Of a DNA stretch of 64,000 bases, positions 1,781-62,055 are shown one piece after another; positions within the stretch are counted from its first letter, which is position 1; every line of letters starts with the position of its first letter. Below the pieces are notes generated by a model, which had not been told where the DNA came from, ran no database searches, and saw only the letters and a list, made by a program, of their open reading frames with translations. The DNA comes from a virus, in IMG/VR virus record IMGVR_UViG_3300031715_000001, positions 1-64,000 of that record, one strand, 5' to 3'. Made by a program: the position numbers and the translations under genes.

Positions 1781-1947
1781 CTTATCAATATGCTCGCTTG
1801 CCGATACCCGTACCCCAGATCGTTCCACGTGAATCTTAATTGTTCCACGAAGAGTATGAGAAGCATTTTCCGTCCTGCGCCAATCTGGCATATGGCGCAG
1901 TGAAGAGCGGACGCACCACCGGGGCGATCCGTTCATTGGCTCCGATT

Positions 1948-1987
1948 CCCCGCATTTCCCGCATTTCCCGCATTTCCCCCGCATCCC
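1948..1987. repeat. 9-bp tandem repeat (CCCGCATTT) x ~4
   Basis: cccgcatttcccgcatttcccgcatttcccccgcatccc. Confidence 0.8.
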
Positions 1988-2136
1988 GTGCCGCCTCCGA
2001 TCAGGCCCTTGACCATAGCCCACAACTCCGCTGTAAGTCACTCCGTTTCAATGGGTTGAAGGGCCTGCCGTGCAGCAAGGTGCACCTTCCTGCACGGGTG
2101 AAATCAAGCGTTCTGGCCTACTGTTTGCCTCACCGA

Positions 2137-2736
2137 TTACCTCGCGCGGCGGGGGACTTTCTGCACATTCTGCAAGGCCAGTCGGAGCGTCGCCTGGGGT
2201 ATTCCCATCTCCATTTCCATCGCCCGCCAGCTCAGCCCTGTGGCCCGCAGCCGCGCGGCTTCGTCTCTCCGGAAGACTCTTTTCGGCCGCCCGCAGTGCT
2301 TGCCCTGACGTTGTGCTTCGGCAACGCCGGCGCGCACGCGCTCGACAATCAGGTCCCGCTCGAACTCGGCGAAAGCGCCAAAGATGTGCATCAGGAACTT
2401 GCCCATCGGCGACTTGGTGTCGGTGTCGATGTTCTGCGAGGGCACGATAAAGCGGATCCCCGCTGAATCGAGGGTCTGGACGTTCTCGATCAAGTGCTGG
2501 AGGGACCGGCCGAAACGATCAAGCTTCCACACCAACACGACGTCGAACTTCTTCAGCCGGGCGTCCTGGAGCAGCCGGTCAAGGACGGGACGCTTGCCGC
2601 CAGCCTTACCCGAAGCCGTTTCCACGTATTCGGTGGGTTGCCACCCGGACCGCTCGATGTATCCGCGGAGTTCGGTAAGCTGAAGCCCGCAATTCTGATC
2701 TTCGGTGGAGACGCGGGCGTAGATGGCGGCGGTCAT
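2137..2736 (-). CDS. Serine recombinase (resolvase/invertase family)
   Basis: YARVSTEDQ catalytic Ser motif, VWKLDRFGRS, FAEFERDLIVERVRAG, C-terminal HTH. Confidence 0.95.
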   Translation of the reverse strand: MTAAIYARVSTEDQNCGLQLTELRGYIERSGWQPTEYVETASGKAGGKRPVLDRLLQDARLKKFDVVLVWKLDRFGRSLQHLIENVQTLDSAGIRFIVPSQNIDTDTKSPMGKFLMHIFGAFAEFERDLIVERVRAGVAEAQRQGKHCGRPKRVFRRDEAARLRATGLSWRAMEMEMGIPQATLRLALQNVQKVPRRAR

Positions 2737-2795: not shown

Positions 2796-3140
2796 TGTTC
2801 TGGGATACCGGGACAGAAGGAGCTTGCAATGGTCGAGCGGTGGAACTCCGCTCGTGGATTGTAACTTGCTGGTTCACTTGTGCTCATGAAAACTAAAGCT
2901 AAATGGGGTGGCCGGCGTCAAGGCGCCGGCCGCCCATTCTCCAAGCAACCCCGCTGTAAATGTGGCGCGATGACACTGAAGCGCGCCAAGGCCCGTGCCC
3001 ACAAGTGCTAGCGACCCGCTCCGAAAGCCTCAGAGGGCGTACGACCCAGGGTCGCAACCTACGAGCCGCATCCGAGGAAAGCCTGAACGAAAAAAGATCT
3101 AAAGGGTGTACAATCTTTCGCAGGAGGGACACCGCGTCCT

Positions 3141-3356
3141 ATGCCTGGTCAACACTTCAAAGCCACACCCATTCCGCTCAACAAGATTCCGGAGCCTTTG
3201 CAGCCGGTCGCAAAAGCCTTAGCCCGCGATACCAACGCCGCCATCGTCACCGGGGATATAACAACCGAAGGATTGCACAAGTACTTCACTGCCTTGGACG
3301 AGTGGGTCACACAACAAAGGAATTCGCTACCTGAAGCCGCCGGCGCCGCAGGTTAA
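3141..3356 (+). CDS. Hypothetical protein
   Basis: ORF downstream of AGGAGG; converges on the minus-strand block. Confidence 0.5.
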   Translation: MPGQHFKATPIPLNKIPEPLQPVAKALARDTNAAIVTGDITTEGLHKYFTALDEWVTQQRNSLPEAAGAAG

Positions 3357-3544
3357 AGACGACTGGCTTTCGCGGCCATAGCCTTTAGCTTCTGGGTAGC
3401 TTTGACTTCATCTTCGGCATTCAAGCCCGCAATTTGTTTGCGCATGTTCTCGTTGTCGGCTTTCAATCTCGCACGTTCACGGTCTACTACGTCCCTTAAT
3501 TGAAGTAGAGGATCCCAAGCATTGGGAGTTTTCATAACCGACAA
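3353..3544 (-). CDS. Small coiled-coil protein
   Basis: Last ORF of minus-strand block; heptad pattern. Confidence 0.5.
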   Translation of the reverse strand: MSVMKTPNAWDPLLQLRDVVDRERARLKADNENMRKQIAGLNAEDEVKATQKLKAMAAKASRL

Positions 3545-3562
3545 GCTTTCTTAACAGATCTT

Positions 3563-3761
3563 CCGTCCTGCGCTCTCCTGACCACAGGCATCCAGGATGG
3601 GCGGCCTCGGGTAGGGGCATCCTCAGAGCCCGATCTTGTCCGCTCACAAGTAGACCGTTCCTGGATTCCCCTGGCCGATCCTGCGGATAAGTTGGGTTAC
3701 CCGTCTTCGCTTCTGGCCGACGAGCGCGGTGAAGAGGGACGAGTAACCGACCGTTCCGTTT
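3563..3761 (+). repeat. Family A hairpin element carrying nested B and C modules, long tail
   Basis: ccgtcctgcgctctcctg[B/C]acgagcgcggtgaaga..ccgttt. Confidence 0.9.
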
Positions 3762-4212
3762 ATTTGCCCGGCACTGAAGGTTTTACTTCGGTCTTTCGCC
3801 GTGCTTGAGCTTCTGCCAAGGACGGCTCACCCGTCGGAACGCGCCCGGTTAGTTCTTGCAATATTCGCTCCAGTTTTGCGATGTAGGCCAAGGCTTCGGT
3901 GAGCCTGCTGTTGACCAGGATATGAATCTCGCTCTGGGTCTCTTCAATGCCCGCTAGAGCAATGTTGGTTTTACTGGTGGTGGCAACGAGGGCAATGCGT
4001 GCATCCTCGACTTTCATTGCAATCTCGGCCGCCGCGGCTGTCGATTCTTTGTGGGCGGCAATTGTCGCAGCCTCGGTTCTGTCGTGAGCCTCGCGCGCCA
4101 GCTTGGCATTGCGATTCGCAATGAAGGTATTCACCAACGTTGCGATCGGGTTGGCCGCGATCACTCCAAAAGCTGAGATGGCCGCAGCCAGCGGAACATT
4201 GTTCAAATCCAC
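3760..4212 (-). CDS. Membrane-anchored coiled-coil protein (holin/lysis-associated?)
   Basis: N-terminal hydrophobic helix; EIHILVNSRL segment; lysis-block context. Confidence 0.5.
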   Translation of the reverse strand: MDLNNVPLAAAISAFGVIAANPIATLVNTFIANRNAKLAREAHDRTEAATIAAHKESTAAAAEIAMKVEDARIALVATTSKTNIALAGIEETQSEIHILVNSRLTEALAYIAKLERILQELTGRVPTGEPSLAEAQARRKTEVKPSVPGK

Positions 4213-4371
4213 TTAAATACCACCACGGAAAAAGATGAGCAGCAGGAAGATCACCAGCACCAGGCCGATGACGCCGATCCCACCACCAGCACCCCACTGG
4301 GAGTAGCCATACCAACCGCCTCCTCCACCGAAGACCAAGAGCAGGATGATGATCAACAGAATTAATCCCAT
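4213..4371 (-). CDS. Small Gly-rich membrane protein (DUF3309-like)
   Basis: MGLILLIIILLLVFGGGGGWYGYSQWGAGGGIG. Confidence 0.7.
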   Translation of the reverse strand: MGLILLIIILLLVFGGGGGWYGYSQWGAGGGIGVIGLVLVIFLLLIFFRGGI

Positions 4372-4373
4372 GT

Positions 4374-4655
4374 TCAGATTTCCTTTGAGTGTGTGTCCAC
4401 GCAATCGGTGGCGAGTGGCTGATCGGCCAGGAGTTTCACTGGCTGAAGTTTGTTGTTAAACGTCAATTGCTGAAGCCAGACGTCTCCGGTGAAGAGAATT
4501 TGCAGCCGTTCCAACCAAGTTGCATGCCAGCGCGAGGTGACCATACCGTCCGACCTGATTAGAGCGGGGAGTTCCTCGTACTGCGGTTGACCGGCGCCGA
4601 TGTTGCGTTCGGTTAAACCTGCGACTTCGTGGAGTACGGGCGATGCGGGTTTCAT
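4374..4655 (-). CDS. Hypothetical phage protein
   Basis: QPQYEELPA..SRW..W.ERL.ILFTG.VWLQQLTF; coupled to neighbours. Confidence 0.65.
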   Translation of the reverse strand: MKPASPVLHEVAGLTERNIGAGQPQYEELPALIRSDGMVTSRWHATWLERLQILFTGDVWLQQLTFNNKLQPVKLLADQPLATDCVDTHSKEI

Positions 4656-5785
4656 TCGATTATTTCCTTACTACCCTTGGCAATCAGGCTAGCGGCGCGA
4701 GTTGCGGCATTGGCTACCGCGAGCGCGATCCGCTGAGACGACGTCAAGGGAGCGCTGGTCAATTCCGAGGTAAGAGCACTTTGAGCGGCTTCGGACCGCG
4801 CGATCGCGGCGGTGACGTCCGAGACGTACTTGTTCACGTCCGTGATATATACCGTGGAACTGATCGGGGCGGCCGGTGGGACGACGACAGGCGGCGAGAC
4901 GGGAACCGGCGGGGGGACTACGACAACCGGAGGCGTGACGGTGCCACCCATGGAATTGAAATAACCGACCAGCAGCGAATACGTCCCGCTGGGAGCTTTT
5001 TGCGTGGCTTGGTTTGCCCAGTCCGGGTTTAGCACGGTGTACAATTCACCGCCCACCGAAGAGGCGCAATACTTCGCCAGCGCCGCCCACGTCATAATTC
5101 CGATCATGCCCCAGGTGCTGATGATGATTCCTACAGCGGTGTAACCGATCGCGACGACGCAATGACCATTGTTGGGGTCGGGATCGCCCGCTACGTCCCA
5201 AACAAATCCCGATTCGGAAGGGAACGGCGTGATCCAGGCGGCGGGAAGATTTAAGCCCAGTACATTGTCGCCGAACAGCCAAATTGTGCTCTTAACCTGA
5301 GCGACGTTGGTGGGATCGACCGCTAGCCATCCAGCGATCTTGTGAGAGCCGTCGGCGAGCAGCCCGTTTGCCTGCCAGTAGGTCAGGGCGGTGTCGATAT
5401 TGCAACCCTGGTCCGTAGACGGATCGGCGGGATTGAACTCGCCGCCGCTCATTCCCGTGTAGTTAAACTCTGTCTGTGTATCGGTGAAAATGATTGCGGG
5501 ACCGCCAGCATTGCCTGTAAACACGCCGTCGGCATGTTCGGTAGCGGCCGGTACACAGCAACCCAGGACATTATTGAGGTAAATCAGCAGCAGCGCAGCC
5601 ATCGCCTCAGGCGAGTAATCGATGGTCGCCGGAGCAGTCGGCAGGCTTTCGAGCGGAAGATAATCCTTGATCTTGGCGTGCGCCTCTATGATCTCGATTG
5701 GCGTCTGCTTTCTGCCAAAGAAGACACGCCTTCCGGTCAGAGGATGGATGACACTTTTTACTGGCATGATTTTCCTGTCGAGCAA
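4652..5785 (-). CDS. Papain-like cysteine peptidase with Pro/Val linker and helical C-terminal module
   Basis: LNNVLGCC (catalytic Cys), GHCVVAIGY (His), STWG. Confidence 0.7.
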   Translation of the reverse strand: MLDRKIMPVKSVIHPLTGRRVFFGRKQTPIEIIEAHAKIKDYLPLESLPTAPATIDYSPEAMAALLLIYLNNVLGCCVPAATEHADGVFTGNAGGPAIIFTDTQTEFNYTGMSGGEFNPADPSTDQGCNIDTALTYWQANGLLADGSHKIAGWLAVDPTNVAQVKSTIWLFGDNVLGLNLPAAWITPFPSESGFVWDVAGDPDPNNGHCVVAIGYTAVGIIISTWGMIGIMTWAALAKYCASSVGGELYTVLNPDWANQATQKAPSGTYSLLVGYFNSMGGTVTPPVVVVPPPVPVSPPVVVPPAAPISSTVYITDVNKYVSDVTAAIARSEAAQSALTSELTSAPLTSSQRIALAVANAATRAASLIAKGSKEIIE

Positions 5786-5835
5786 AAGATCGGGCTCCTC
5801 TTTGGGGGAAAGAGGAACCCGAGGGGAAGGAAGGC

Positions 5836-6075
5836 TTATTTCTTCTTAGCGGAGCTGGCGACGTCGAAGGCGTTGACCGTGGTATCGGCTGCGTCTACGG
5901 CGGCGTCCGCGGCATTGAGGGCGGTCTGCTGGGCGGGCGTCAGGCTGGCGGCCGCAAGGGCTGCGGTCAGCGCGGTCATGGTCGCCTGGGCTCGCGCGAT
6001 CGCGGCTTGAGAATCCGTGACGTATTGATTCACGTCATTGATGAACGTGGTCGGGTTTACTGGGCTGGTTGCCAT
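5836..6075 (-). CDS. Ala-rich helical protein, paralogous to peptidase C-terminus
   Basis: FINDVNQYVTDSQAAIAR vs YITDVNKYVSDVTAAIAR; AAGGAG RBS. Confidence 0.7.
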   Translation of the reverse strand: MATSPVNPTTFINDVNQYVTDSQAAIARAQATMTALTAALAAASLTPAQQTALNAADAAVDAADTTVNAFDVASSAKKK

Positions 6076-6115
6076 TGTCTTGAATTTCTCCTTGTGAGTT
6101 TTTGATTGCTTGAAA

Positions 6116-6292
6116 CTACGGTTTGGCCGTGGGGTCGAAACCCTTTACGGCCTGGTCTGCGGTCTTGACTGACGCATCAGCTTCATCCATTGCGATCTGC
6201 TGAGGGTTAGGCAAGCCTTGAAGTAGAGCGAGGAGGGATTGGTATAGAGAGGGCTCTACGTCTTTAAGGTGAAGGTCAATGTCGATTTGCAT
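6116..6292 (-). CDS. 58-aa protein absent from the ORF track (MQIDIDLHLKDVEPS...)
   Basis: AAGGAG RBS; QQIAMDEADASVKTADQAVKGFD resembles the 5836..6075 C-terminus. Confidence 0.65.
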   Translation of the reverse strand: MQIDIDLHLKDVEPSLYQSLLALLQGLPNPQQIAMDEADASVKTADQAVKGFDPTAKP

Positions 6293-6332
6293 TTCTCCTT
6301 TCCCTTCTGAAAACTAGATTGTGGAGATTGAT

Positions 6333-6460
6333 CCGTTTCGCGCTGCCGACCACTAGCGTTCTGGATGGGTGGCCTTGTCCCGCCGGATAAGCAGGGGTAC
6401 CCGTCTTCGCCCCTGGCCAGCAGCGCGGTGAAGACGGGACGGTAACCGGGCGGTCCGTTT
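6333..6460 (+). repeat. Family A element with nested B, long tail
   Basis: ccgtttcgcgctgc[B]gcagcgcggtgaaga..ccgttt. Confidence 0.9.
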
Positions 6461-6620
6461 ATTGGAACGCTGCGTGGATCGGAGCCCAGCCGAGCGCGGC
6501 CGTCAGGAACACCAGTCCCCAGGCGATCAACGCGCTGTTATACGGCCATACGGGATTACGGAAGTGACCGATTCCGGCGAGAATGAAAAGCACAATCGCC
6601 ACGATGAAACATGCGAGCAT
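6459..6620 (-). CDS. 53-aa two-TM membrane protein (holin-like), absent from the ORF track
   Basis: MLACFIVAIVLFILAGIG..ALIAWGLVFLTAALGW; AAGGAG RBS. Confidence 0.6.
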   Translation of the reverse strand: MLACFIVAIVLFILAGIGHFRNPVWPYNSALIAWGLVFLTAALGWAPIHAAFQ

Positions 6621-6632
6621 GAGAGTTCTCCT

Positions 6633-6902
6633 TTACGCTTTGGGCGGGGTTGGTACGGGCGCGTTCACGCCTGTAGCCGGTTCCTGGTTGGCGGCGGCGA
6701 GCGCTTGCACAGTGGAAGGTTGTCCGTGATCGCCACCCGTTACGTTCGAATCCTTGGCGAAGAAGCCCAAGACTCCAACCACTAAGGCGAACCATACCAG
6801 GGGGTCGTTGATAATTGCGACTAGCATTGTGTGTTTCGAAGCCTGTAATACACCGAGAGCTACCGCTGCAAGACCAGAGATAGTGGTCTTCCAAGAAGCC
6901 AT
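6633..6902 (-). CDS. Holin-like membrane protein
   Basis: MASWKTTISGLAAVALG..LGFFAKDSNVTGG. Confidence 0.65.
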   Translation of the reverse strand: MASWKTTISGLAAVALGVLQASKHTMLVAIINDPLVWFALVVGVLGFFAKDSNVTGGDHGQPSTVQALAAANQEPATGVNAPVPTPPKA

Positions 6903-6961
6903 ACTCGGAGTTTTAATCTGAATAGTCACATTTCCTTCAAGATGTAATGCATCAGGATTTG

Positions 6962-7025
6962 CCGTCCTGCGCTCTCCTGTCAACGAGCGCGGAGCACAGG
7001 GAACGCATTACCGGGTGTTCCGTTT
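6962..7025 (+). repeat. Family A element, long tail
   Basis: ccgtcctgcgctctcctgtcaacgagcgcggagca..ccgttt. Confidence 0.9.
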
Positions 7026-7035
7026 ATTTGTGGGC

Positions 7036-7090
7036 TCAGAGCGCGCACGGACGAACTTGATCCGTTAACGAGCGATGAGCCAAGCGTGAA
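7036..7090 (+). repeat. Family D element
   Basis: gagcgcgcacggacgaa..gatcc..cgatga..aagcgt. Confidence 0.75.
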
Positions 7091-7107
7091 CCTAAAAGCA
7101 AGCTGAC

Positions 7108-7833
7108 TTAGAAGCCCATCATTTCCAAACCAATCCAAGGAATGACGAGAGAAGAAGATTTAGTAGGTTCACATGCCTCAATCGTCTTCAGTGGAACAGG
7201 AGGTAAATTACCCTGCCACGTCAGCACCGGAACAGGCGACAACTTGGCACGTTTCTTACTCGCACCATTGGTGTAGGAAATGGATCCCAATACAGTCCAG
7301 ACACCGGAGAAGGAAGGTAGGCCATTCGCCATCGTTCCGTAGGGCGCCAAGGTGATCGCTGGAGGAAGGGTCGGGAGGAAGGCCGCTTCGTTCGGTTGCT
7401 GGCCGATTAGATAGCTCTTGAACGATTGAGCCGCTGTGTTGCCGAGCGATGTCGCGGCCGTGGCCCGGAGCGCGATCCTGGCCGACATGCCGATCAGTCC
7501 TCCGCCCAGCAGTGCGACCGCGAAAGGGCTGACGAAGTTCAATGCCGCGATTGCCCGGCTCTTTTTGGAATTGTTGAAGGCTTTGTCCGCTACCGCCTGG
7601 GCGCGAGCCGCATTCTCGATCTCCAATGTCGGAAACCACTGCCTGATCATGGCTTCGGTGATGATCACCATCCCTGAGGAATAATTCGTCACACCTATGT
7701 CACAGGTCGCCAGGTTTTTGATTCCGAGAACATTGGAACGAATACTCTCACACTGTGCTGTTGCGGAGACTCCTACTGATTGACCTTTCAGTACGAGAGC
7801 GGTGGTCAGCAATACGACGAAGAACTTCAGCAT
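7108..7833 (-). CDS. Exported protein of unknown function
   Basis: Signal peptide MLKFFVVLLTTALVLKG. Confidence 0.6.
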   Translation of the reverse strand: MLKFFVVLLTTALVLKGQSVGVSATAQCESIRSNVLGIKNLATCDIGVTNYSSGMVIITEAMIRQWFPTLEIENAARAQAVADKAFNNSKKSRAIAALNFVSPFAVALLGGGLIGMSARIALRATAATSLGNTAAQSFKSYLIGQQPNEAAFLPTLPPAITLAPYGTMANGLPSFSGVWTVLGSISYTNGASKKRAKLSPVPVLTWQGNLPPVPLKTIEACEPTKSSSLVIPWIGLEMMGF

Positions 7834-7845
7834 GTGAAGAATGAT

Positions 7846-7908
7846 CCGTCTCGCGCTCTCCTGTCAACGAGCGCGTTGAAGACTGACGAGATCCCGGCCG
7901 TTCCGCTT
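7846..7908 (+). repeat. Family A element, long tail
   Basis: ccgtctcgcgctctcctgtcaacgagcgcgttgaaga..ccgctt. Confidence 0.9.
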
Positions 7909-8004
7909 ATCCCATGACGCCATCCCAGGAATATGAACGCTCCCTCCATGGTTTGGTCATCACCATCGGGCAGATCCATTACTTCGAGGTTGGCTTGCAT
8001 CGGA

Positions 8005-8265
8005 CTAGGCTTTCCACAATTTCTTAGCCGCTTCTCCGGCTCTTGCGAAACTCTTCGTATCGACTTCCGCTGGCTTGGTACAGGTCTGCTCGTTCGTCTC
8101 TCCGTTTGGATATGGGCAGCCTGTTAATTTTCTTATGAAGAGATTCCAGGGCCGTTCTAAGGCCATAGCCAAGGTCAGCAGTTCGTCGCCGGAGATGCTC
8201 TGTGCAGCGATTAAGGCGGGGACCGGTGCGCAGAACAGCCCGACGAATAACGCGCGTCTTGTCAT
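8005..8265 (-). CDS. Small exported protein
   Basis: MTRRALFVGLFCAP leader. Confidence 0.55.
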   Translation of the reverse strand: MTRRALFVGLFCAPVPALIAAQSISGDELLTLAMALERPWNLFIRKLTGCPYPNGETNEQTCTKPAEVDTKSFARAGEAAKKLWKA

Positions 8266-8372
8266 GGGCAGGTCTTATTTGCTCGGAGGCGGAGGTTTCG
8301 GTATGGGAACCCAGCGGTTGAGTTGGAGGTCGAACTGCTTTCCGAAGATAGTTTTCATTATCCAGGCGGTGA

Positions 8373-8918
8373 TCATGTTCGTGAACCTTCAGGCTTCTGT
8401 GCCATCTCGACCATCAGTTCCAGCGGGCACTTCGGACCGGGACATGGTTTGTCGCTGAAAATCTCGTGATGCCCGACGATGTGCGTGCGGTCAATCGGGA
8501 TGTCCCAGCGCTGGCAGATTTCCGCGATCAGAGCGGCGCTTGCTTCGATCATCGCCTCCGGCCACTCGTCTTCCAACTGGCCTTCGTGCTCTATTCCTAT
8601 CAGGAAGTTGTTGGGATTCGTGTTGCGGAACTGGAGGAGCAACGCAAGGGTTGGCGGTTGCGGATTCAGGCGGCCGGCATGAAACGCTCGGTCCTCTTCC
8701 TTCACGTATTGATGGATCTGGCCTTCTTTGCCGACGCCGTAATGCGCACTCGAGGGTGGTTCGTCTCGCTTCTCCGGTGTGGTCAGGAACCATGTGTCTG
8801 TTCCTATCAGCGTACCCGCCATTAAGTGAATGACTATACCTTCGGGCTTGTAGTCGAGACGGCCGGAGGCGAAGTTTCCTTCTGCACAGCCGATCCAGGT
8901 TTTCGATAAGATGGGCAT
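8373..8918 (-). CDS. N-acetylmuramoyl-L-alanine amidase (Amidase_2), endolysin
   Basis: IVIH, SSAHYGV, AFHAG, IGIEHEG, IVGHHEI, KPCPG. Confidence 0.92.
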   Translation of the reverse strand: MPILSKTWIGCAEGNFASGRLDYKPEGIVIHLMAGTLIGTDTWFLTTPEKRDEPPSSAHYGVGKEGQIHQYVKEEDRAFHAGRLNPQPPTLALLLQFRNTNPNNFLIGIEHEGQLEDEWPEAMIEASAALIAEICQRWDIPIDRTHIVGHHEIFSDKPCPGPKCPLELMVEMAQKPEGSRT

Positions 8919-9357
8919 CGTGGAGAATCGGCGGGGGTCTTACGTGCTGATCGGCCAGACGCCGGTTCCAGAACCGGATCTACTGACCTGGGCGATGTGG
9001 ATGGAAACAGGAGACCGGCACGTTCGACATACCAGAGTCGGCCCGTATTTCGTCTCGACGATTTTCCTGGGACTCGATCACAACCATTTCCGATATCTTG
9101 ATCCTGAGAACTCCGGGCCGCCCATTCTTTTCGAAACCATGGTGTACGTCCACAATCCGCATACTGTGGAATGTTTCGGAAAAGAGATCACCTTCAACTC
9201 CGATTTCCTAGACATTCAGGAACGATGCTCAACATGGCTCGAAGCCGAAGCGCAGCATCAGCGCGTGATCGATCAAATTCGGGAAGGCTCTGACGACATC
9301 GAAGAGGTAGTTTCGGAGGGCGAACGATCCAGTGTTTCAACCAGCGAACCGTCGTAG
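8911..9357 (+). CDS. Hypothetical phage protein
   Basis: VSTIFLGLDH..PILFETMV..ERCSTWLEAEAQH. Confidence 0.65.
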   Translation: MGIVENRRGSYVLIGQTPVPEPDLLTWAMWMETGDRHVRHTRVGPYFVSTIFLGLDHNHFRYLDPENSGPPILFETMVYVHNPHTVECFGKEITFNSDFLDIQERCSTWLEAEAQHQRVIDQIREGSDDIEEVVSEGERSSVSTSEPS

Positions 9358-9389
9358 AGAAGACCCTCAACCCAAAAAAGAAAAGCAGA

Positions 9390-10049
9390 TCACTTCGATA
9401 AAGGACGTGCCCATTCTCTATTGATCGGTACGCCTACGCTGCGTCCCATCATTTCAATATTGACTACCAAGCCCCACTGATCCTTGCCCTTGAACTTGCT
9501 CAATATTCCGATACGTCCAACCAGTGGTCCGCAGATAATCTCGACCTTCTGGCCGATTACAAGCGGAATCGAAGCGCAGGGTAATCCACTCGCTAGCATG
9601 GCCCTTATCGTGTCAATCTCAGCCTCGGTGACGAGCGCCGGCGCTCCCAGGCAGCTCAGAATCTTGACCACTCCGAAGGTCTGCAATATCCGGACACGTT
9701 CCTCGAAATCGAACTTGCAGAAAAGATAGCCGCGAAAGAGCGGGATGTCCAATACGACTTTGCGGTCATGCCACTTTCTCAGCTCTTTGGAGGTTGGTAA
9801 GTAGCGTTCGTAGCCTTTTGATTCCAGATCTTGAGAGACGATGGATGCATGTCTTGGATTGACCAGCAGTACTTTCCAGGGTTGGATCAGTTCATTGTGA
9901 ACGATTGGTTCGTCCGCGCCAATCTGTCGACCAGTGGCATCCGCAAATGGGCGGCCTTGTCCTGCGGATAAGCAGGGGGACCCGCCTTCGCTCGGGCCGA
10001 TGGCGCGAGGTGGAACGCCCGGTGCCCCGGCGATCCGTTCATCCGTCAA
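9390..10049 (-). CDS. NusG paralogue (RfaH/UpxY-like antiterminator); N-terminus formed by an A+B element
   Basis: YLPT..RKWHDRK..PLFRGYLFC (NGN); KVEIICGPLVG (KOW). Confidence 0.88.
   Translation of the reverse strand: MTDERIAGAPGVPPRAIGPSEGGSPCLSAGQGRPFADATGRQIGADEPIVHNELIQPWKVLLVNPRHASIVSQDLESKGYERYLPTSKELRKWHDRKVVLDIPLFRGYLFCKFDFEERVRILQTFGVVKILSCLGAPALVTEAEIDTIRAMLASGLPCASIPLVIGQKVEIICGPLVGRIGILSKFKGKDQWGLVVNIEMMGRSVGVPINREWARPLSK
9911..10040 (+). repeat. Family A element with nested B, long tail
   Basis: cgtccgcgcca..[B]..tggcgcg..ccgg..ccgttc. Confidence 0.8.
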
Positions 10050-10589
10050 CTACTTCTCTCGTTCCTTGGTCGTCAGATCGTGCTTGATGCCTTCGTCGAT
10101 CGAGATGGGCGCCCAGGTTGGCCCGCTTGGCCCGGCCTGCAGCACTGTCCCAGATCCACCAGGGTTCACGGCAAGATCGGATGACCCGGTGATTGCCGCT
10201 GAGGTGTTCACCGCATTCCAACTCGGAGTTATCCAGGCGCTGGAACCGTAATAACAGCCACGACTGGCGTACTGGCTGGAGTCGGGGACTAAGGCTCTGA
10301 AGTCAGCGGAGAATTGAACCTTTTCCCATCCGGGGATGTAGGCTTTTTCAACCTTGCCGTCTTTCTTGCTTGGCTTCGCGTCTTGGTCGATCGTGTACTT
10401 CTCGGCGACATAGACCTTGACGTCCTCCCATTGCTTCTTGGCATCCTGGTAGGTCTTGTAAGCCTTCGCCAAGTGGTCAGAATCCGACTTGTCGACGATC
10501 ATGATTTTGGCTTCCTGCCCGCGAGCGAGGAGCGCCGTAAATCCAACCACAACCAGGATTGTGATTCCCAACATAACGAGAGCTTTCAT
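10050..10589 (-). CDS. Exported protein of unknown function
   Basis: Signal peptide MKALVMLGITILVVVG. Confidence 0.6.
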   Translation of the reverse strand: MKALVMLGITILVVVGFTALLARGQEAKIMIVDKSDSDHLAKAYKTYQDAKKQWEDVKVYVAEKYTIDQDAKPSKKDGKVEKAYIPGWEKVQFSADFRALVPDSSQYASRGCYYGSSAWITPSWNAVNTSAAITGSSDLAVNPGGSGTVLQAGPSGPTWAPISIDEGIKHDLTTKEREK

Positions 10590-10635
10590 TCAGGTTTTCC
10601 TTTCATTGAAGACGCTTCTATTTCGCGATCAAAAT

Positions 10636-10761
10636 AAGCGAAACACCGGGGCATGCGTCAGTGTGCTCCGCGCCCGTTCGGCATCGACCGAAGACGGGTG
10701 GCTTATCCGCTGGACAAGGCCGCCCATCCTGGATGCTAGTAGTCAGGAGAGCGCGAGACGG
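10636..10761 (-). repeat. Family A element with nested B, long tail
   Basis: rc ccgtctcgcgctctcctg[B]acgggcgcggagca..cgctt. Confidence 0.9.
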
Positions 10762-10897
10762 CGAATCGTGATCGGGACATACCTCCGGTACAATCGGTAA
10801 CATTTCAGGTATTTCACTTAACTTCTGAGAGTTTGCCGTTCAATATAAGGTGTAGGTTGAGGGGGTTGAAAGTGTCGCTCGAAGTGTCGCAGTACTT

Positions 10898-11479
10898 CTA
10901 GGCGGCCGCTAACATGGATGGACCAGGCGACAGACGGATGATCCGGTCGTATTCATCGCGGAGTTTCTTGACGGCGCGTTTCTTCCGCTGTTTGAATTGC
11001 GAAGGGGAGATATTGAGATCCTTTTGGATCTGTGCATCCGTGCGATGCCCGAAAAACGATTGACGCACGATCTCCCGATTCAGTTCGGGCAGTTTTTCGA
11101 GCAGGCCGTGTAATATTCCTGCACGCTCGGCATCCGATTCCGCGCGTAACAGATCCAGCTCCTCGGTCGGCGGCGTCGCCAGATGTACGGGGAACGGAAT
11201 CACTTTTCTGATGGCGGTCGATCGTGCTTCCAGGGCGTCCGCCCGCAGGATCAGCGCTATTCCACGGGCGTAGGCTATCGGGAAGTCCGGATGTTCGATG
11301 CGGTTCTCCTGGATCGCTTCTAGAACACGCGCGTTCAATTCCTGCAGGAGATCCCTGGCCGTTTCTTTCCCGAGGGAGACGAAAAAGCGTTCGCAGTGAT
11401 TCTTGAGGGCTCCGGCCAGGGCTTTCAATGCTGCCGGCTTGTGGGCCTGAACTCCGTCGTGGATCTCGCGCTCGGTCAA
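10898..11479 (-). CDS. ECF-like sigma factor
   Basis: DLLQE..VLEAI; LEKLPELNREIVRQSF..QIQKDLNISPSQFKQRKKRA. Confidence 0.7.
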   Translation of the reverse strand: MTEREIHDGVQAHKPAALKALAGALKNHCERFFVSLGKETARDLLQELNARVLEAIQENRIEHPDFPIAYARGIALILRADALEARSTAIRKVIPFPVHLATPPTEELDLLRAESDAERAGILHGLLEKLPELNREIVRQSFFGHRTDAQIQKDLNISPSQFKQRKKRAVKKLRDEYDRIIRLSPGPSMLAAA

Positions 11480-11624
11480 GCAGCCTTTTTGTCCGGCGCC
11501 TTCAAGTCGTGGATCTCTTTCTCTACCGCCTTGATCTTGGATTCCAAGTCCTCTTGCCGTTGGATCAGCGCGTTACGATAAGCCTGACGGTCTTTCAGCC
11601 GTTCCTTGCGTTGTCCGTCGGTCA

Positions 11625-12059
11625 TTACTTCACCTTGGCTACAACTTCCACCGGCCTCCAGCCTGTCTTCTCCCAGGTCAGGAACTTTTTGATTTCATCC
11701 TCGGACAAGTCGGTCTTCTTGAGCGCATCCTGGGAGATTTTGCAGATGGAGAAAAACACCGCGCGCGTGAGCCGCTTCAGAAGCTTGCCCATGTCCGCTA
11801 TCCTGGCTTCGTTGCGGCGCGGCCCCACGATTACCTTAAACTGCTCGCCTTCGATGTAGCAGGGCAGCGTAGCGGCGGCATTATCAAACTTGGCCCGGCA
11901 CTCCTTCGTCAATTCATCCTCGAGATCGATGTCGCCTTTCAACTCCGCAAGGATGGGCTTCAGTTTGGATCGAAGTGCTCCAAGGCGGTCCGCGATAGCT
12001 GGCCAATCTCCTACCGCTGGGCGGGTTGACGCAAAAACTTCGGCGGGTTTGCTGCTCAT
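11625..12059 (-). CDS. Hypothetical phage protein
   Basis: ORF in operon-like arrangement. Confidence 0.55.
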   Translation of the reverse strand: MSSKPAEVFASTRPAVGDWPAIADRLGALRSKLKPILAELKGDIDLEDELTKECRAKFDNAAATLPCYIEGEQFKVIVGPRRNEARIADMGKLLKRLTRAVFFSICKISQDALKKTDLSEDEIKKFLTWEKTGWRPVEVVAKVK

Positions 12060-12410
12060 GACTATAGGGTCGAAGTGAGCGAGTAAAATATTTACGTCTT
12101 TTTTTTAACCAACGGGCGGGCGGTAAAAGCGGGTAGAAGGTGGTGGGGAGCCGCGCTGCACTTAAAGATGTTTCTGGCCAGCGACCGACCCTCAGCAAGT
12201 AGGCGCAGATCGACGGACTAAATCGGCAACGGCCCTAGCAGGCTGGCCACGCACCGACTCCAGCCAAGCACCAGCCGCTATCCATTCGCTAAGCTGGCTT
12301 TCCGTTCAAACGGGCAACGGTATCAATCGACAGGCCACGTGACGCCTGCTGCCCTCCGGCTGCCCCTGCTATGGCCCTACACTTCCCGGCTGACCAGAAA
12401 CACCCGAATC

Positions 12411-12857
12411 TTAGCACGCGCTCGCTCTCATCCTCTTCAAAGCCTGGTGTGAAATCACATTCACTGTAATCGTCTTTATCCCGAGCGACCGAGCGATCTC
12501 CTGAGTTCCCTCGCCGGCCGCCAGCCGGTCCACCACCACTCTTTGCCGCGGGCTCAGCCTCAGCATCAGCCTCCGAACGATCCGGCCCCGCTCCTCTGCG
12601 ACGGCCAGCTCCTCGGGAGTGAGACAGGCCGATTGCAGCTCCTGACCGCGCCCGTTGACAGGAGGGCGCGAAACGTTAGAAAGCCCATGATGTAATAAGC
12701 TGGATCCTTCGGATATCCGTACTGGACTCAGTTCCACATGGAACTCATCTTTCCATTCAGACCTTACGAAATCTAGCATTGCTCCCCTAACCCTGTCCCT
12801 TACAAAGGGCCAGAATGGTCCGATAGAAGGTTCATAATACTCAGCTTCCAGTATCAT
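12411..12857 (-). CDS. Sigma region-4/LuxR-type regulator with internal family A hairpin
   Basis: RVRGAMLDFVR (sigma region 2-like); LSPRQRVVV..EIARSLGIKTITV. Confidence 0.7.
   Translation of the reverse strand: MILEAEYYEPSIGPFWPFVRDRVRGAMLDFVRSEWKDEFHVELSPVRISEGSSLLHHGLSNVSRPPVNGRGQELQSACLTPEELAVAEERGRIVRRLMLRLSPRQRVVVDRLAAGEGTQEIARSLGIKTITVNVISHQALKRMRASAC
12647..12675 (-). repeat. Family A hairpin (intragenic)
   Basis: rc cgtttcgcgccctcctgtcaacgggcgcg. Confidence 0.9.
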
Positions 12858-13100
12858 GGCGACTATCCCTATGCCCTCTAAGTCCTTTATTTCGAAGCAG
12901 GGTGGAAGCGTCTTTTTGAGGCGCCGCGCGAGCGTGTGGATACGGCCGAGGTGCTGGATTAGAAACGTGTCCCGTTCGGCTTGGCTCGTAAAGGCTCCTT
13001 AACGGTTCCTTCCCAAGCCGGTCTCAGCGGTTTATGGCATCCTAGCTAGTAGAATCACTAGGTTTAGACCCTAGCCTGTGCTCAATATGGATGGATAGCA

Positions 13101-13631
13101 ATGGGAAGCGGACCGGTGCAGCGAAAGGCCCACAGCCACGCCGATAAGTATTCGACCGTGCTGAAAAACATTCTGCCGGGCCGCCTTTTGCTGCTGAGGA
13201 GGATACACTCGCTTTCCCAGAAGCAGGCCGCCCGGCGCCTAGGCATTGCGGTCTCGACGCTCAACGCAATCGAGGGTGGGCAAGCTAACGATCTCAAGTT
13301 CTCGACGCTCTGCAAGATGTCGGAGTGCTTTCGGGTCTCGATCGACTATCTCTTAGGTTTGGAACGGCAGCAGGACCTAGTCCGCGGCTTCTACGATCAG
13401 GGTGTCTTCCGGTACTACACGATCGAGATTTTCGAGGACGGCAACTCCCCGAGGAAATGCTTCTATTGCGGCTGGCCATTGAACCCTCACCGCTCGCACA
13501 GCATCCCCGAGTGCATGTTGATGATGCACCAACGGAATCAGGACTATCAGTTCATCGCGAATCGCTTTGGGTTCAGCGTGAAAGGTGTTCAGACGATCAT
13601 CGAGGAAGAGATTGGAATACTCAGGTCTTAG
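13101..13631 (+). CDS. XRE-family HTH regulator with C-terminal Cys/His and second HTH-like segment
   Basis: LSQKQAARRLGIAVSTLNAIEGG..FRVSIDYLLG. Confidence 0.85.
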   Translation: MGSGPVQRKAHSHADKYSTVLKNILPGRLLLLRRIHSLSQKQAARRLGIAVSTLNAIEGGQANDLKFSTLCKMSECFRVSIDYLLGLERQQDLVRGFYDQGVFRYYTIEIFEDGNSPRKCFYCGWPLNPHRSHSIPECMLMMHQRNQDYQFIANRFGFSVKGVQTIIEEEIGILRS

Positions 13632-14812
13632 CGGTTTATGGGTGGACGCACTCCCACGACTACAACTTTGTGCCTATGGGATTCGGCGGTATTAACGCAG
13701 ACTGCTTCCGAAGAAGTCTGACTGTCTGCTTCCGGCCAAAGGCGGCGACACGCCTCTAAGATCGACTTCGCGGCGTTCTGGTCCCGGTCGTGAACCTCGC
13801 CGCACTTTTCGCAGGTGATGATCGTCTCCGAGAGAGCGACATCCTGAATATGCCCGCAGCAACTCATGCGTTTGGTGGAAGGATCGAAGCGTGGCATCTG
13901 AGCGAACAGACGGCCATATTTTTCGCAAAGCCATTTCTGTTTCAACAGATAACTCGAAAATCCGAGGTCGCTGACCTTACGACCCCAAAGAGCCTTCATA
14001 CCGGAAATATTTAGGTCCTCAAAAGCCAACGCGTCAAAGCGACTCGCCAAATCATACGCCGTCTTCCAGTGAAAATGCCGGCGCTTATTGGCTAACGAAC
14101 GATGAAGCCGTGCCACATTCAGACGCGCTCTTCGGCGCGAATTGCCGCCTTTCGCTTTGCGGGAAAGGCTTCGGCTGGCACTCCTCAATTGCCTGAGAGC
14201 GTGCTTGAGCGGTTGCGGAGAAACGATTTTCTCTCCGCTGGAAAGCGTGAGGAAGTTCCTTAACCCAAAATCCGCGCCTGTGGTTTTACCAGTCTTGACG
14301 AGAGGTTCGGGTATCGGAACTTCCGCACACGAGAAGGATACGAAATATCGCCCGGTTGTGTCCCGGCTGATTGTGACGGTTTTGATCATGCCGAGCACTG
14401 CGCGCGATTGATGAAACCGGTAGAGACGCCCTTGAATACGTAATCTGCCGGGGCCAAGCAGTTTCCAACCGTTCTGCTTTAGTGTGAAACTCTTGTACTT
14501 ACGGCGGGCGCGAAAGGTCGGCGGGCGTTTGATTTCCTTTTTGAAGAAGGCATCCCATGCACGGTACATCCGGTCAGTTACGGCCTGCACGGCTTGGCAG
14601 TCCACTAGCCTCCAATGCTGAAAGCGCGTGCGGCGTAGTTTTGCGAGATGCCGCTGGAGATGACTCTGCTTGAGCGTCTTATGAAAGATCTTGTAGTAGC
14701 GCCGATGGAGTGCCACCGAGTGGTTCCAGATATGAGCGGAGACATCAATCGTGCGGCTCAAATGCTTCGTTCGCCCGGACCTCATTAACTGAAACTTGAA
14801 TGATTGCCTCAT
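13628..14812 (-). CDS. tnpB: TnpB (IS200/IS605 family RNA-guided nuclease), no TnpA nearby
   Basis: RuvC motifs GADFG, FEDL, DRDQNAA; Zn finger CC..CEKC. Confidence 0.93.
   Translation of the reverse strand: MRQSFKFQLMRSGRTKHLSRTIDVSAHIWNHSVALHRRYYKIFHKTLKQSHLQRHLAKLRRTRFQHWRLVDCQAVQAVTDRMYRAWDAFFKKEIKRPPTFRARRKYKSFTLKQNGWKLLGPGRLRIQGRLYRFHQSRAVLGMIKTVTISRDTTGRYFVSFSCAEVPIPEPLVKTGKTTGADFGLRNFLTLSSGEKIVSPQPLKHALRQLRSASRSLSRKAKGGNSRRRARLNVARLHRSLANKRRHFHWKTAYDLASRFDALAFEDLNISGMKALWGRKVSDLGFSSYLLKQKWLCEKYGRLFAQMPRFDPSTKRMSCCGHIQDVALSETIITCEKCGEVHDRDQNAAKSILEACRRLWPEADSQTSSEAVCVNTAESHRHKVVVVGVRPPINR
13642..13760 (-). ncRNA. Predicted omega-RNA scaffold / element right end of TnpB 1 (5' limit approximate)
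   Basis: GAATCCCA..GTCGTGGGAGTGCGTCCA resembles IS605-type right ends (GAATCCCACG..CGTGGGAG..TCAA). Confidence 0.55.
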
Positions 14813-17014: not shown

Positions 17015-17245
17015 TCATCTTGGTACCTTCACTTCATCGAGAATTAAATGAAACCAGCGAAACACACCCGATATGGGCCAATCGTGACTATCCGCGAGGA
17101 GGTAACCCACCGCGAATCCGAAACATCCAAAGTCGATGTGCTCGAAGCCGTAAATCGTCGCGGTTGTCTGGTTGCCGTGCATGGTGCGAAATGAGGATCT
17201 GTCGTACATCTTCACCCTGTCCCCGATTTTGAAAGCAGTGGTCAT
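17015..17245 (-). CDS. Hypothetical protein
   Basis: FKIGDRV start; coupled to HNH gene. Confidence 0.55.
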   Translation of the reverse strand: MTTAFKIGDRVKMYDRSSFRTMHGNQTTATIYGFEHIDFGCFGFAVGYLLADSHDWPISGVFRWFHLILDEVKVPR

Positions 17246-17556
17246 GCCGTCGCCTCCACCAGCAACGGACGTGCTCTATCTTTCCTGGCGGACCTCGTCA
17301 GATGGGCTTTCCATACCCAATCCCAGTAGTCGTGAGCCCTATGACACTTGTGGCACAGGGTAAGGAGGTTAGAATCTTCTCCGTGGGCCGGGTTTCTGTC
17401 GGCGTGCGCTACTTCTAAACGGCTCCGTTCTCCAGGTAATGAATCTGGGAGTTTACATCTCCTGCATCTGTAGCCGTCTCTCTTGAGTATTCGTGGACGT
17501 GTTACTGTCCGCCACTTATGGCCGTACAAGGGACGGAACTCAAGAGATATGGGCAT
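17242..17556 (-). CDS. Small HNH endonuclease
   Basis: ILKRDGYRCRRC..LEVAH..NLLTLCHKCHRAHD. Confidence 0.85.
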   Translation of the reverse strand: MPISLEFRPLYGHKWRTVTRPRILKRDGYRCRRCKLPDSLPGERSRLEVAHADRNPAHGEDSNLLTLCHKCHRAHDYWDWVWKAHLTRSARKDRARPLLVEATA

Positions 17557-19515: not shown

Positions 19516-19532
19516 TCTTGTTCACCTATCCT

Positions 19533-19569
19533 CCGTCTCGCGCTCTCCTGGCAACGGGCACGTTGGGGA
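19533..19569 (+). repeat. Family A element, short tail
   Basis: ccgtctcgcgctctcctggcaacgggcacgttgggga. Confidence 0.9.
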
Positions 19570-40037: not shown

Positions 40038-40615
40038 AACTTCGCCTCGAGGGTGGCTTTGGCGGCGAGGCAGATGGCGAGCGGGGCGGTGGCTGCGAAC
40101 GCTTGATAGTGAGGCTCGTCGTCGTCAGTCTTTGAGAAACAAGTGTGCCAATCGTCAGTCCAGTGAGCAGCGGGCCGCTCGGTTGTAGAGGCTGCATTCA
40201 CGGTGGCATGCCAGCCCAGTTCCCTCATCCGCTCCACCACGCTCCAGGCATCAGAGATTCCAGTTGAAAATCCGGGACATAAACGGGAATTGCCTTTCTC
40301 GTCGCGCCAATGGGAATTTAGCGCAACCCACCCACCGAGCATCATCGTCCCGCGAGGCACGAACCGCCAGCCAAGGCAATGCTCAGCAATCCAGACATCC
40401 AATTCTTCGCCCGGAGCGCCGCCATCGACCGAAGACGGGTGCCCCAACTTATCCGCAGGATCGGCCAGGGGAATCCAGGAACGGTCTACTTGTGAGCGGA
40501 CAAGATCGGGCTCTGAGGATGCCCCTACCCGAGGCCGGGCATCCTTGGATGCTAGTGGTCGGGACAAAGCCGAATCTTTCCCGGCCGACGTCGTCATATC
40601 ATCTTCATGTTTCAT
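40034..40615 (-). CDS. Phage ABA-sandwich (BC1872-like) protein with B+C element in N-terminus
   Basis: ELDVWIAEHCLGW..FSTGISDAWSVVERM..TAPLAICLAA. Confidence 0.75.
   Translation of the reverse strand: MKHEDDMTTSAGKDSALSRPLASKDARPRVGASSEPDLVRSQVDRSWIPLADPADKLGHPSSVDGGAPGEELDVWIAEHCLGWRFVPRGTMMLGGWVALNSHWRDEKGNSRLCPGFSTGISDAWSVVERMRELGWHATVNAASTTERPAAHWTDDWHTCFSKTDDDEPHYQAFAATAPLAICLAAKATLEAKL
40421..40562 (-). repeat. B+C element without a recognisable A stem
   Basis: 40443-40537 is the exact reverse complement of 3602-3696 (95 bp). Confidence 0.92.
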
Positions 40616-61764: not shown

Positions 61765-62055
61765 TTATTTCGTATCGTCAGCAGCGCATGGAAACTGGTG
61801 CTCTGGAAACTCGGCAGGATCGCCGGGATACTCACCACCGCAGTTTTCGCAGTAGGTGACCGTCTCGTACGAGTCGGCCACGTCAGGAGGCCCACCAGCA
61901 CGCTGACTCTTCCATTTATGCTCCATCTCGCCAGTCTCCCACGTGCCCGTCGGCATCGAGCGAAGACGGGTCCCCGTACTTATCCGCAGGATAAGGCCGG
62001 GTATCCAGGATGCGAGTGGACGAGGGCACGAAACGCACGATAGCCTCAATTCCAT
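61765..62055 (-). CDS. Small Zn-ribbon protein bracketed by A copies
   Basis: HKW..YCENCGGE; start abuts upstream stop. Confidence 0.5.
   Translation of the reverse strand: MELRLSCVSCPRPLASWIPGLILRISTGTRLRSMPTGTWETGEMEHKWKSQRAGGPPDVADSYETVTYCENCGGEYPGDPAEFPEHQFPCAADDTK
61936..62035 (-). repeat. Family A element with nested B, short tail
   Basis: rc cgtttcgtgccctcgt[B]acgggcacgtgggag. Confidence 0.88.

What the first reader, a model, noticed from the sequence alone, without database searches (positions are those of the whole stretch)
3563..3761. Nested modules: B inside the loop of A, and C inside B
Seen: five A copies (3563, 6333, 9911, 10636r, 61936r) have a roughly 65-70-nt module B in the loop, consensus CCACTAGCATCCAGGATGGGCGGCCTTGTCCTGCGGATAAGCAGGGGTACCCGTCTTCGCTCGATGCCG. 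B is itself a hairpin (GATGGGY/ACCCGTC, CTTGTCC/GGATAAG). Two B copies carry a further ~72-nt multi-hairpin module C after GGCC; 3602-3696 is identical over 95 bp to the reverse complement of 40443-40537, 37 kb away. At 40421 B+C has no recognisable A stem, and a B-like fragment is at ~23922-23945. Inference: independent mini-elements that target each other's hairpins, with recent copying or conversion of B+C.
Basis: partly seen in the sequence, partly recalled or inferred. Interest (0 to 1): 0.82.

Follow-up and report, generated by a model that had tools for sequence, protein, structure and literature searches.

The report
Nested palindromic modules in phage hairpins
An uncultured soil phage carries about 46 copies of a small conserved DNA hairpin, and in seven of them a second palindromic piece sits at the tip of the hairpin, twice with a third piece inside it. 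This is a Russian-doll arrangement that looks like tiny mobile DNA, not a gene or a known RNA.

Summary
The window is the first 64 kb of a 106.7-kb phage contig.

- **A:** hairpin family A has 38 "empty" copies with a covarying 7-bp stem and uniform 10-11-nt loops.
- **B:** seven further A copies carry module B (about 68 nt) in the loop. A 5'-truncated copy lies at 95.1 kb. B always has the same orientation and sits at the same loop point.
- **C:** two B copies carry C, a 72-nt imperfect palindrome that is 100% identical in both.

B-filled hairpins belong to at least five A stem, loop and tail classes that also have empty members. Homology between B copies stops sharply at B's ends. B therefore behaves as a discrete module added to A, not as a remnant of a long ancestor.

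Independent mobility of C is not shown. The near-identity tract runs beyond C into B, which fits one event plus copying or conversion of B+C.

Rejected readings: TnpB omegaRNA or IS605 end, assembly artefact, any Rfam family, and a high-copy host repeat in about 1,100 sampled genomes. No B relative was found anywhere else. The enzyme and the function remain unknown.

The scan had noted the same long form in overlapping windows of this same genome, not on other DNA.

The parts
3563..3737 (+). A hairpin (foot and arms at 3563-3575 and 3722-3729) enclosing B+C. The long tail continues to about 3765 and overlaps the stop codon of the minus-strand ORF 3760-4212.
3579..3720 (+). Module B, split by C. 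The left half is 3579-3607 and the right half is 3679-3720.
3607..3678 (+). Module C, a 72-nt imperfect palindrome. Its terminal inverted match is 13 of 16, and it folds as a rod hairpin with z about -3.
6333..6437 (+). A hairpin with B and no C. The tail runs to about 6465. Together with ORF 6459-6620 it is absent from a near-identical environmental variant.
9910..10016 (+). A hairpin of the second loop class, with B and no C.
10662..10762 (-). A hairpin with B, which carries a 5-nt internal deletion. The right part of the A loop is intact.
40402..40573 (-). B+C inside a decayed A: the foot, left loop part and tail are recognisable but the stem is lost. C lies at 40461-40531. The element begins 38 nt downstream of the tnpB stop codon but lies outside the IS right end.
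61933..62037 (-). A hairpin with B, the variant with the other 5' half. Its twin lies outside the window at contig 80705-80809(-).
6960..7004 (+). Example of an empty A. Its foot and arm are identical over 18 nt to the filled copy at 3563. It is one of 38 empty copies in the contig.

Best explanation
B and C are non-coding, imperfect-palindrome ('foldback') modules added at the tip of a phage-specific hairpin repeat, A. A is the basic unit.

B is about 68 nt and its ends are inverted repeats of each other. It lies at one fixed point of the A loop, in one orientation, and replaces about six loop bases. It lengthens the A stem into a long rod.

B has reached A copies of at least five different stem, loop and tail classes. 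It is therefore copied from hairpin to hairpin independently of any one A copy. The most likely route is a small non-autonomous insertion element of the MITE or ERIC kind that uses the single-stranded hairpin loop as its landing site. A loop is also the only place in this tightly packed genome where an insertion leaves the hairpin intact.

C is 72 nt and has the same kind of ends as B. It is a second-order module of the same sort at the tip of B. Its two copies trace to one insertion, followed by duplication or gene conversion of B+C.

Shown: discrete boundaries, fixed site and orientation, palindromic build, spread across A classes, recent copying of B+C, and presence/absence of whole A(+B) units in environmental variants.

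Inferred: the act of transposition, the single-stranded target, and the enzyme, for which no candidate was identified.
For: - The 38 empty A copies have uniform 10-11-nt loops. Their stem is 99% paired, and 6 of 7 pairs show compensatory changes.
- A related phage fragment (major capsid protein 61% identical) has about 8 A-like hairpins with the same loop length.
- All seven B copies and the truncated one align colinearly with A, at the same loop point.
- Filled copies share foot and arm with empty copies of their own class, for example 18-nt identities of 3563 with 6962 and of 10636r with 7846 and 19533. Further class matches were read.
- The two most similar B copies, at 61.9 and 80.7 kb, are identical over the first 31 nt of B, yet their adjacent arms differ at three positions with compensation. 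Homology therefore ends at B's boundary.
- C's terminal inverted match of 13/16 was reached by 0 of 5,000 shuffles, and its fold has z about -3.
- B folds as an extension of the A stem on either strand.
- A non-homologous 49-nt foldback occupies the same loop position of an A-like hairpin in the related phage, next to an empty twin with the same stem.
- An environmental variant lacks 6309-6638, which is A+B plus a small ORF. A weaker joint skips 3536-3745.
Against: - There is no clean target-site duplication. Instead about 3-6 loop bases are missing at the insertion points.
- B's own terminal repeats are weak, 2-6 of 8.
- No Y1/RAYT transposase is encoded in the phage, and no other candidate enzyme was linked to the modules.
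- No allele was seen that lacks only B or only C.
- B was never found outside A or outside this genome, so mobility is inferred from seven copies in one genome.
- One orientation in 7 of 7 copies would also fit a single origin spread by recombination.
Confidence: 0.45

Rival explanations
1. There is no transposition. B arose once by growth of the palindrome at one hairpin tip and then spread to other A copies by homologous recombination or gene conversion between the many A repeats. This would resemble exchange between PeSL cassettes in T4-type phages, helped by the phage's own annealing protein. C arose the same way and was copied once.
For: - The near-identity tract of the two B+C copies (3602-3709) does not coincide with C. 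It runs 38 nt into B on one side, as a conversion patch would.
- The 3' part of B is mosaic between copies.
- One empty A, at 19531-19575, has a 5' arm of one class and a 3' arm of another, which is a crossover inside the loop.
- The phage encodes a Sak4-like annealing protein.
- All copies share one orientation.
- A near-identical variant differs by a 330-nt indel bounded by a repeated ribosome-binding stretch.
Against: - Conversion seeded in the arms should often co-convert them. The arms next to the most similar B copies differ and stay complementary.
- The flanking homology available is only about 15-25 nt on each side.
- This reading does not explain why a non-homologous foldback sits at the same loop point in a related phage.
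Confidence: 0.3
2. A with B and C is one functional structured element, as RNA or as single-stranded DNA, with optional apical domains. This would resemble the variable terminal structure of integron attC sites or the variable arms of structured RNAs. Copies with and without B would be functional subclasses kept by selection.
For: - The strong covariation of the A stem shows selection or correction for structure.
- The B core is highly conserved in loops as well as stems.
- B prolongs the A helix without breaking it.
- attC sites tolerate very different terminal structures (PMC5027507).
- Elements lie exactly at gene boundaries, and their tails often abut stop codons.
Against: - Elements lie in both orientations relative to the uniformly minus-strand genes, with 4 of the 7 full copies in sense and 3 antisense.
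- There is no Rfam match even at E up to 10.
- Fold z-scores are modest and similar on both strands.
- Pairing of the 5' half of B differs between copies.
- No homologue of B occurs outside this genome, and the related phage uses an unrelated insert.
Confidence: 0.15
3. B+C is the omegaRNA or right end of the neighbouring TnpB (IS605-family) element, and the other copies are its miniature derivatives.
For: B+C at 40402-40573 lies 38 nt downstream of, and in the same direction as, a TnpB ORF at 40612-41772.
Against: - Four homologous tnpB loci (61-73% identity) end in a shared hairpin motif that also occurs in the window, inside the ORF's 3' end near 40650-40690. The IS therefore ends about 80 nt before B+C.
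- None of the tnpB loci fetched has B downstream.
- The second TnpB, at 13628-14812, has no B.
- The phage has no Y1 transposase.
Confidence: 0.03
4. The 95-108-nt identity and the nested look are assembly artefacts, caused by mis-threading through a repeat.
For: The contig is a metagenome assembly. The C-bearing copy at 3.6 kb was not covered independently by the laid contigs.
Against: - Copy-specific bases lie 6 nt to the left and 19 nt to the right of C, so words that bridge C and each flank must exist in the reads.
- Contigs from two other studies carry B+C with the 40.4-kb flank.
- Seven B copies, each with its own flanks and substitutions, cannot come from a collapse.
Confidence: 0.02

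Closest known systems
ERIC/IRU and other modular palindromic intergenic repeats of bacteria (ERIC long forms with about 70-bp internal insertions; BOX A-B-C modules; Correia elements). This comparison rests on my own knowledge and was not checked in a paper here.
   Same: These are short, non-coding imperfect palindromes at gene boundaries, in both orientations. They have short and long forms that differ by a discrete insert of about 50-70 nt at a fixed internal site, and they form hairpins in the transcript or in single-stranded DNA.
   Different: This family sits in a phage genome at very high density, about one element per 2.3 kb. The base unit is only about 45 nt, with strong stem covariation. 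There is a second level of nesting (C in B). No sequence similarity to these families is known or was found.
REP/REPIN elements mobilised by RAYT transposases (PMC3116915)
   Same: They are GC-rich extragenic hairpins, frequent as inverted doublets, non-autonomous, and thought to move as single-stranded hairpins.
   Different: The phage has no RAYT or Y1 gene. A was not found as a high-copy repeat in about 1,100 sampled bacterial genomes. As far as I know, REPINs are not described with foldback modules nested in the REP loop.
PeSL regulatory cassettes of T4-type phages (PMC2839356, PMC4122927)
   Same: They are repeated stem-loop motifs between small non-essential phage genes that act as points of exchange. 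Here a near-identical variant differs by an ORF+hairpin indel, and one hairpin has chimeric arms.
   Different: PeSLs combine a sigma-70 promoter with a terminator and face one way. A consensus scan here found neither enriched. The elements lie in both orientations, and PeSLs are not reported with nested inserts.
Integron attC sites with their variable terminal structure (PMC5027507)
   Same: They are structure-conserved, sequence-variable hairpins at the ends of gene cassettes, with a tip that varies widely in size.
   Different: attC sites lie in one orientation in an array beside an IntI integrase. Their conserved core boxes pair at the base of the hairpin. Here the AAC and GTT motifs sit in the loop and after the 3' arm, orientations are mixed, and no IntI-type array is present.
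IS200/IS605 miniature derivatives (PATEs) and TnpB omegaRNA
   Same: These are hairpin-bearing ends with no target duplication, and a tnpB gene lies next to one copy.
   Different: The IS right end lies about 80 nt upstream of B+C. tnpB relatives lack B, and the phage has no TnpA.

Membership tests
MITE-like non-autonomous insertion element | Terminal inverted repeats | tested here: met
   C has 13 of 16 terminal bases inverted-complementary, reached by 0 of 5,000 shuffles. B is weaker, at 2-6 of 8 depending on the copy.
MITE-like non-autonomous insertion element | Target-site duplication flanking each copy | tested here: not met
   There is no clean duplication. B replaces about 6 loop bases and C replaces 3. 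Loop-like sequence on both sides of B is too short and degenerate to count.
MITE-like non-autonomous insertion element | Several dispersed copies with unrelated flanks, plus empty sites | tested here: met
   B has seven full copies and one truncated copy, in A hairpins of at least five classes that also have empty members. C has only two copies, and these share flanking B sequence.
MITE-like non-autonomous insertion element | A cognate transposase with matching ends somewhere in the genome | tested here: inconclusive
   No Y1 transposase was found. The two TnpB elements have other ends. The serine recombinase at 2137-2736 has its own repeats. Not every protein was scanned, and the host is unknown.
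REP/REPIN-RAYT system | RAYT (Y1) gene, and high copy number of the repeat in the cell's genome | tested here: not met
   No Y1 domain occurs in the phage. Only chance-level single hits to the A foot pattern were found in about 1,100 genomes of three phyla. Acidobacteriota, the commonest taxon among look-alikes of the phage integrase, could not be searched.
TnpB omegaRNA / IS605 right end | Lies within the IS, overlaps the 3' end of tnpB, and is conserved in homologous tnpB loci | tested here: not met
   The shared terminal motif of four tnpB relatives occurs about 80 nt upstream of B+C, and none of the fetched tnpB loci has B.
Integron attC site | Core boxes that pair at the hairpin base, uniform orientation in an array, and an IntI integrase | tested here: not met
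   Orientations are mixed. The AAC and GTT motifs are not at the base of the stem. The phage integrase at 31335-32450 lies beside a tRNA-like fragment, like an ordinary attP integrase. An IntI-specific domain was not tested.
PeSL promoter-terminator cassette | A sigma-70 promoter joined to a terminator stem-loop, facing the gene direction | tested here: not met
   The consensus scan of 3000-13000 found 4 promoter-like sites (4.6 expected) and 10 terminator-like sites (10.4 expected). Only one tail hairpin was flagged, and it lies on the strand opposite to the genes. The host's promoter type is unknown.
Any described RNA family (Rfam 15, including self-cleaving ribozymes) | Covariance-model match | tested here: not met
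   There was no match at the gathering scores in the window. At E up to 10 on 3400-10900 there were only two chance-level hits.

The most novel reading that the evidence does not exclude
The A hairpins are structure-specific recombination sites of a phage-borne gene-cassette system, read as folded single-stranded DNA. B, C and the unrelated foldback in the related phage would be cargo or regulatory modules that the same machinery places at the hairpin tip. This would be a new bidirectional counterpart of integron attC sites that works in a virus.
Probability: 0.12. Interest if true: 0.85.

Novelty: new variant of a known kind. Interest (0 to 1): 0.55.

Why it matters
Small palindromic repeats with nested inserts are known from bacterial chromosomes. 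A virus genome filled with a structure-conserved hairpin, about one per 2.3 kb, whose loop repeatedly accepts further palindromes has, to my knowledge, not been described.

If the modules are mobile, they give a compact natural case of insertion aimed at hairpin loops. Empty, singly filled and doubly filled sites all lie in one 107-kb genome, which would make the mechanism experimentally tractable.

If the modules instead spread by recombination between repeats, they mark the exchange points that shuffle small genes in this phage group. Either way they provide ready markers for tracking micro-evolution of this phage in soil metagenomes.

Tried and rejected
1. TnpB omegaRNA or IS605 end: rejected by comparing tnpB loci.
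2. Known RNA family: none.
3. B relatives elsewhere:
   - Exact-pattern scans of viral contigs gave nothing real.
   - The 12 hits in species genomes were about the number expected by chance, and none extends into B.
   - Metagenome contigs gave nothing.
   - BLAST against GenBank phages gave nothing.
   - The scan's own index gave nothing.
4. Close relatives of the phage for empty or filled alleles:
   - The neighbouring 371-aa protein has no relative in viral or metagenome contigs.
   - A 179-aa neighbour has only 40-54% identical relatives.
   - The phage that shares the TnpB (G001) is unrelated and lacks A.
   - A closer capsid relative (G006, 78% identity, 18.8 kb) has no A in the part held.
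5. Expression: no RNA holder was listed among public runs, so nothing can be said about transcripts.
6. Host repeat idea: only chance-level hits in about 1,100 sampled genomes. The two hits in one genome are not hairpins.
7. Y1/RAYT transposase in the phage: none.
8. Promoter or terminator reading of A and B by sigma-70 consensus: no enrichment.
9. C as a partial duplicate of B: only an 18-nt resemblance between C's 3' end and the B stretch that precedes the C site, of marginal significance (7-14 of 500 shuffles).
10. Other modules with B- or C-like ends in the contig: none beyond the known copies.
11. The joint 3535 to 3746 in one environmental contig has only 24 nt on its short side. It is treated as weak.

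Full report
**Setting.** The window is the first 64 kb of a single 106,688-bp virus contig whose ends overlap by 126 bp. Its genes are phage-like:
- a P22-type major head protein, a portal and a head-closure protein;
- a tyrosine integrase beside a tRNA-like fragment;
- methyltransferases, an amidase, a small serine recombinase, an ECF-type sigma factor and two TnpB genes.

By a crude codon-usage gene call, nearly all genes lie on the minus strand. No cultured phage is close; the capsid protein is at most 31% identical to any.

**Check of the observation.** A 20-nt B core pattern occurs 3 times against 0.02 expected.

C is a 71-72-nt block present in two B copies and identical in both. 3602-3696 equals the reverse complement of 40443-40537, and the match runs on to 3709 with two mismatches. 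The fragment at 23922-23945 is only an 11-12-nt match and is not counted.

**What A is.**
- A regular-expression scan and a covariance model built from 18 copies find 38 empty A hairpins in the contig.
- The 7-bp stem is paired in 99% of cells. Six of seven pairs carry compensatory changes, and 0 of 500 shuffles reach that score.
- Loops are uniformly 10-11 nt and fall into a few sequence classes. A conserved 'foot' precedes the stem. Either a short or a long purine-rich tail follows it.
- Copies lie at gene boundaries in both orientations and are often inverted pairs around small ORFs. Other first-stage notes on this genome said the same.
- A related phage fragment (capsid protein 61% identical) has about eight A-like hairpins with the same foot, tail and loop length but another loop sequence. 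A closer fragment of 18.8 kb has none.

The short, empty form is therefore the conserved state.

**B as a discrete module.**
- In all copies B lies colinear with A, between the left part of the loop and the last one or two loop bases. About six loop bases are missing.
- Filled hairpins match empty hairpins of their own class. 3563 shares an identical 18-nt foot plus arm with 6962, and 10636r shares one with 7846 and 19533.
- 6333 has the stem of the 23.1-kb and 17.0-kb copies. 9911 has the stem and loop of the second loop class. 61936r and 80715r have two further stems.
- All tail types occur with B.
- The two most similar B copies are identical over the first 31 nt of B, while the adjacent arms differ at three compensated positions. 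Homology therefore stops at B's edge.
- B folds as a continuation of the A stem into one irregular rod, on either strand. The z-scores range from -0.5 to -2.8.
- The inner 7-bp hairpin is present in all C-less copies. The pairing of B's 5' half differs between two sequence variants.

**C.**
- With the preceding T, C is a 72-nt imperfect palindrome. Its terminal inverted match is 13/16 (0 of 5,000 shuffles) and it forms a rod-like fold with z about -3.
- Its ends resemble those of B, and it replaces three bases just before B's apical loop.
- The near-identity between the two loci extends 38 nt into B on the right and only 5-6 nt on the left.
- There is no C outside B.

This fits one insertion or expansion event followed by copying or conversion of B+C. 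It does not show that C moves alone. The same asymmetry places copy-specific bases close to C on both sides, which argues against an assembly collapse. Contigs from other soil studies carry B+C with the 40.4-kb flank.

**The 40.4-kb copy and TnpB.** B+C begins 38 nt downstream of the stop codon of a TnpB ORF. Four tnpB relatives (61-73% identical) end in a shared small hairpin motif. That motif is found in the window inside the ORF's 3' end, about 80 nt before B+C, and none of the fetched tnpB loci has B. B+C is therefore outside the IS. Around it the A foot, the left loop part and the tail are still recognisable, while the stem is lost.

**Evidence from other DNA.** No B relative was found in:
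- viral contigs, species genomes, metagenome contigs or GenBank phages;
- Rfam;
- the related phage fragments.

In the related phage, one A-like hairpin carries an unrelated 49-nt foldback at the same loop position. An empty hairpin with the same stem lies elsewhere in that fragment. Tip extension by palindromic inserts thus recurs in this hairpin family.

Contigs from three soil studies, laid on 3000-11000, show a near-identical variant that lacks 6309-6638. That stretch is A+B plus a 53-codon ORF, bounded by a repeated ribosome-binding stretch. A weak joint skips 3536-3745. No joint removes B or C alone.

**Enzymes.**
- The phage has no Y1/RAYT domain.
- The serine recombinase at 2137-2736 has three direct repeats of its own upstream.
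- A Sak4-like annealing protein is present.
- One empty hairpin has arms of two classes, a sign of exchange within loops.
- The A foot pattern gives only chance-level hits in about 1,100 sampled genomes of three phyla.
- The likeliest host phylum suggested by integrase look-alikes could not be searched.

**Verdict.** The nested arrangement is real and non-random.
- The best reading, at about 0.45, is that B and C are foldback insertion modules of a MITE or ERIC-like kind that occupy hairpin tips.
- Spread by recombination between A copies is a serious rival, at about 0.3.
- An optional functional domain is a weaker rival, at about 0.15.
- The omegaRNA and artefact readings are rejected.

Noticed in passing
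window 40612-41772 (-) and about 40650-40690: A TnpB (OrfB_IS605 plus TNB domain) gene. Its ORF appears to read through the IS right end: the terminal hairpin motif shared with relatives lies inside the last ~25 codons.
   Followed up: partly
window 30681-30738 (-), beside the integrase at 31335-32450 (-): A tRNA-like fragment (Rfam tRNA, 40.5 bits; not called by ARAGORN) next to the tyrosine integrase. This is probably the attP core of a temperate phage that integrates into a tRNA gene.
   Followed up: no
window 2137-2736 (-) and 2745-2800: A small serine recombinase (resolvase/invertase type, 199 aa) with three direct 13-nt repeats just upstream. A 30-nt palindrome at 2068-2097 lies downstream.
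   Followed up: partly
window 10898-11479 (-): A phage-encoded ECF-type sigma factor (regions 2 and 4), directly upstream of a B-filled hairpin. The long tails of A read like GGAC, then 15-17 nt, then CGTTTA. That could be an ECF-type promoter as well as a hairpin followed by a T-rich run.
   Followed up: partly
window 19531-19575 (+): An empty A hairpin with a 5' arm of one class and a 3' arm of another (two mismatched pairs). It looks like a crossover inside the loop between two A copies.
   Followed up: partly
window 6309-6638: A near-identical variant in another soil metagenome lacks this 330-nt unit, which holds a small ORF plus the A+B hairpin. The unit is bounded by a repeated ribosome-binding stretch.
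   Followed up: partly
L069:12322-12410 (related phage fragment G007): An A-like hairpin with an unrelated 49-nt foldback in its loop (+ strand fold z = -4.3). An empty hairpin with the same stem lies at 17210-17255.
   Followed up: partly
window 1945-1990: A short tandem array of a 9-nt unit (about three and a half copies), just after the long tail of the A copy at 1868-1912.
   Followed up: no
contig 86263-86357 and 87364-87458 (outside the window): A perfect 95-nt direct repeat about 1.1 kb apart in the structural-gene region.
   Followed up: no
contig 65158-74613 (-) (outside the window): A single ORF of 3,151 codons, with further ORFs of 1,578 and 1,272 codons in the window (51943-56679, 56749-60567). 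These are giant virion-type proteins with no Pfam or PHROG match among those scanned.
   Followed up: no
contig 1-126 and 106563-106688: The ends overlap at 99% identity over 126 nt. This indicates a circularly closed assembly or a terminal repeat, although the source classes the record as linear.
   Followed up: no
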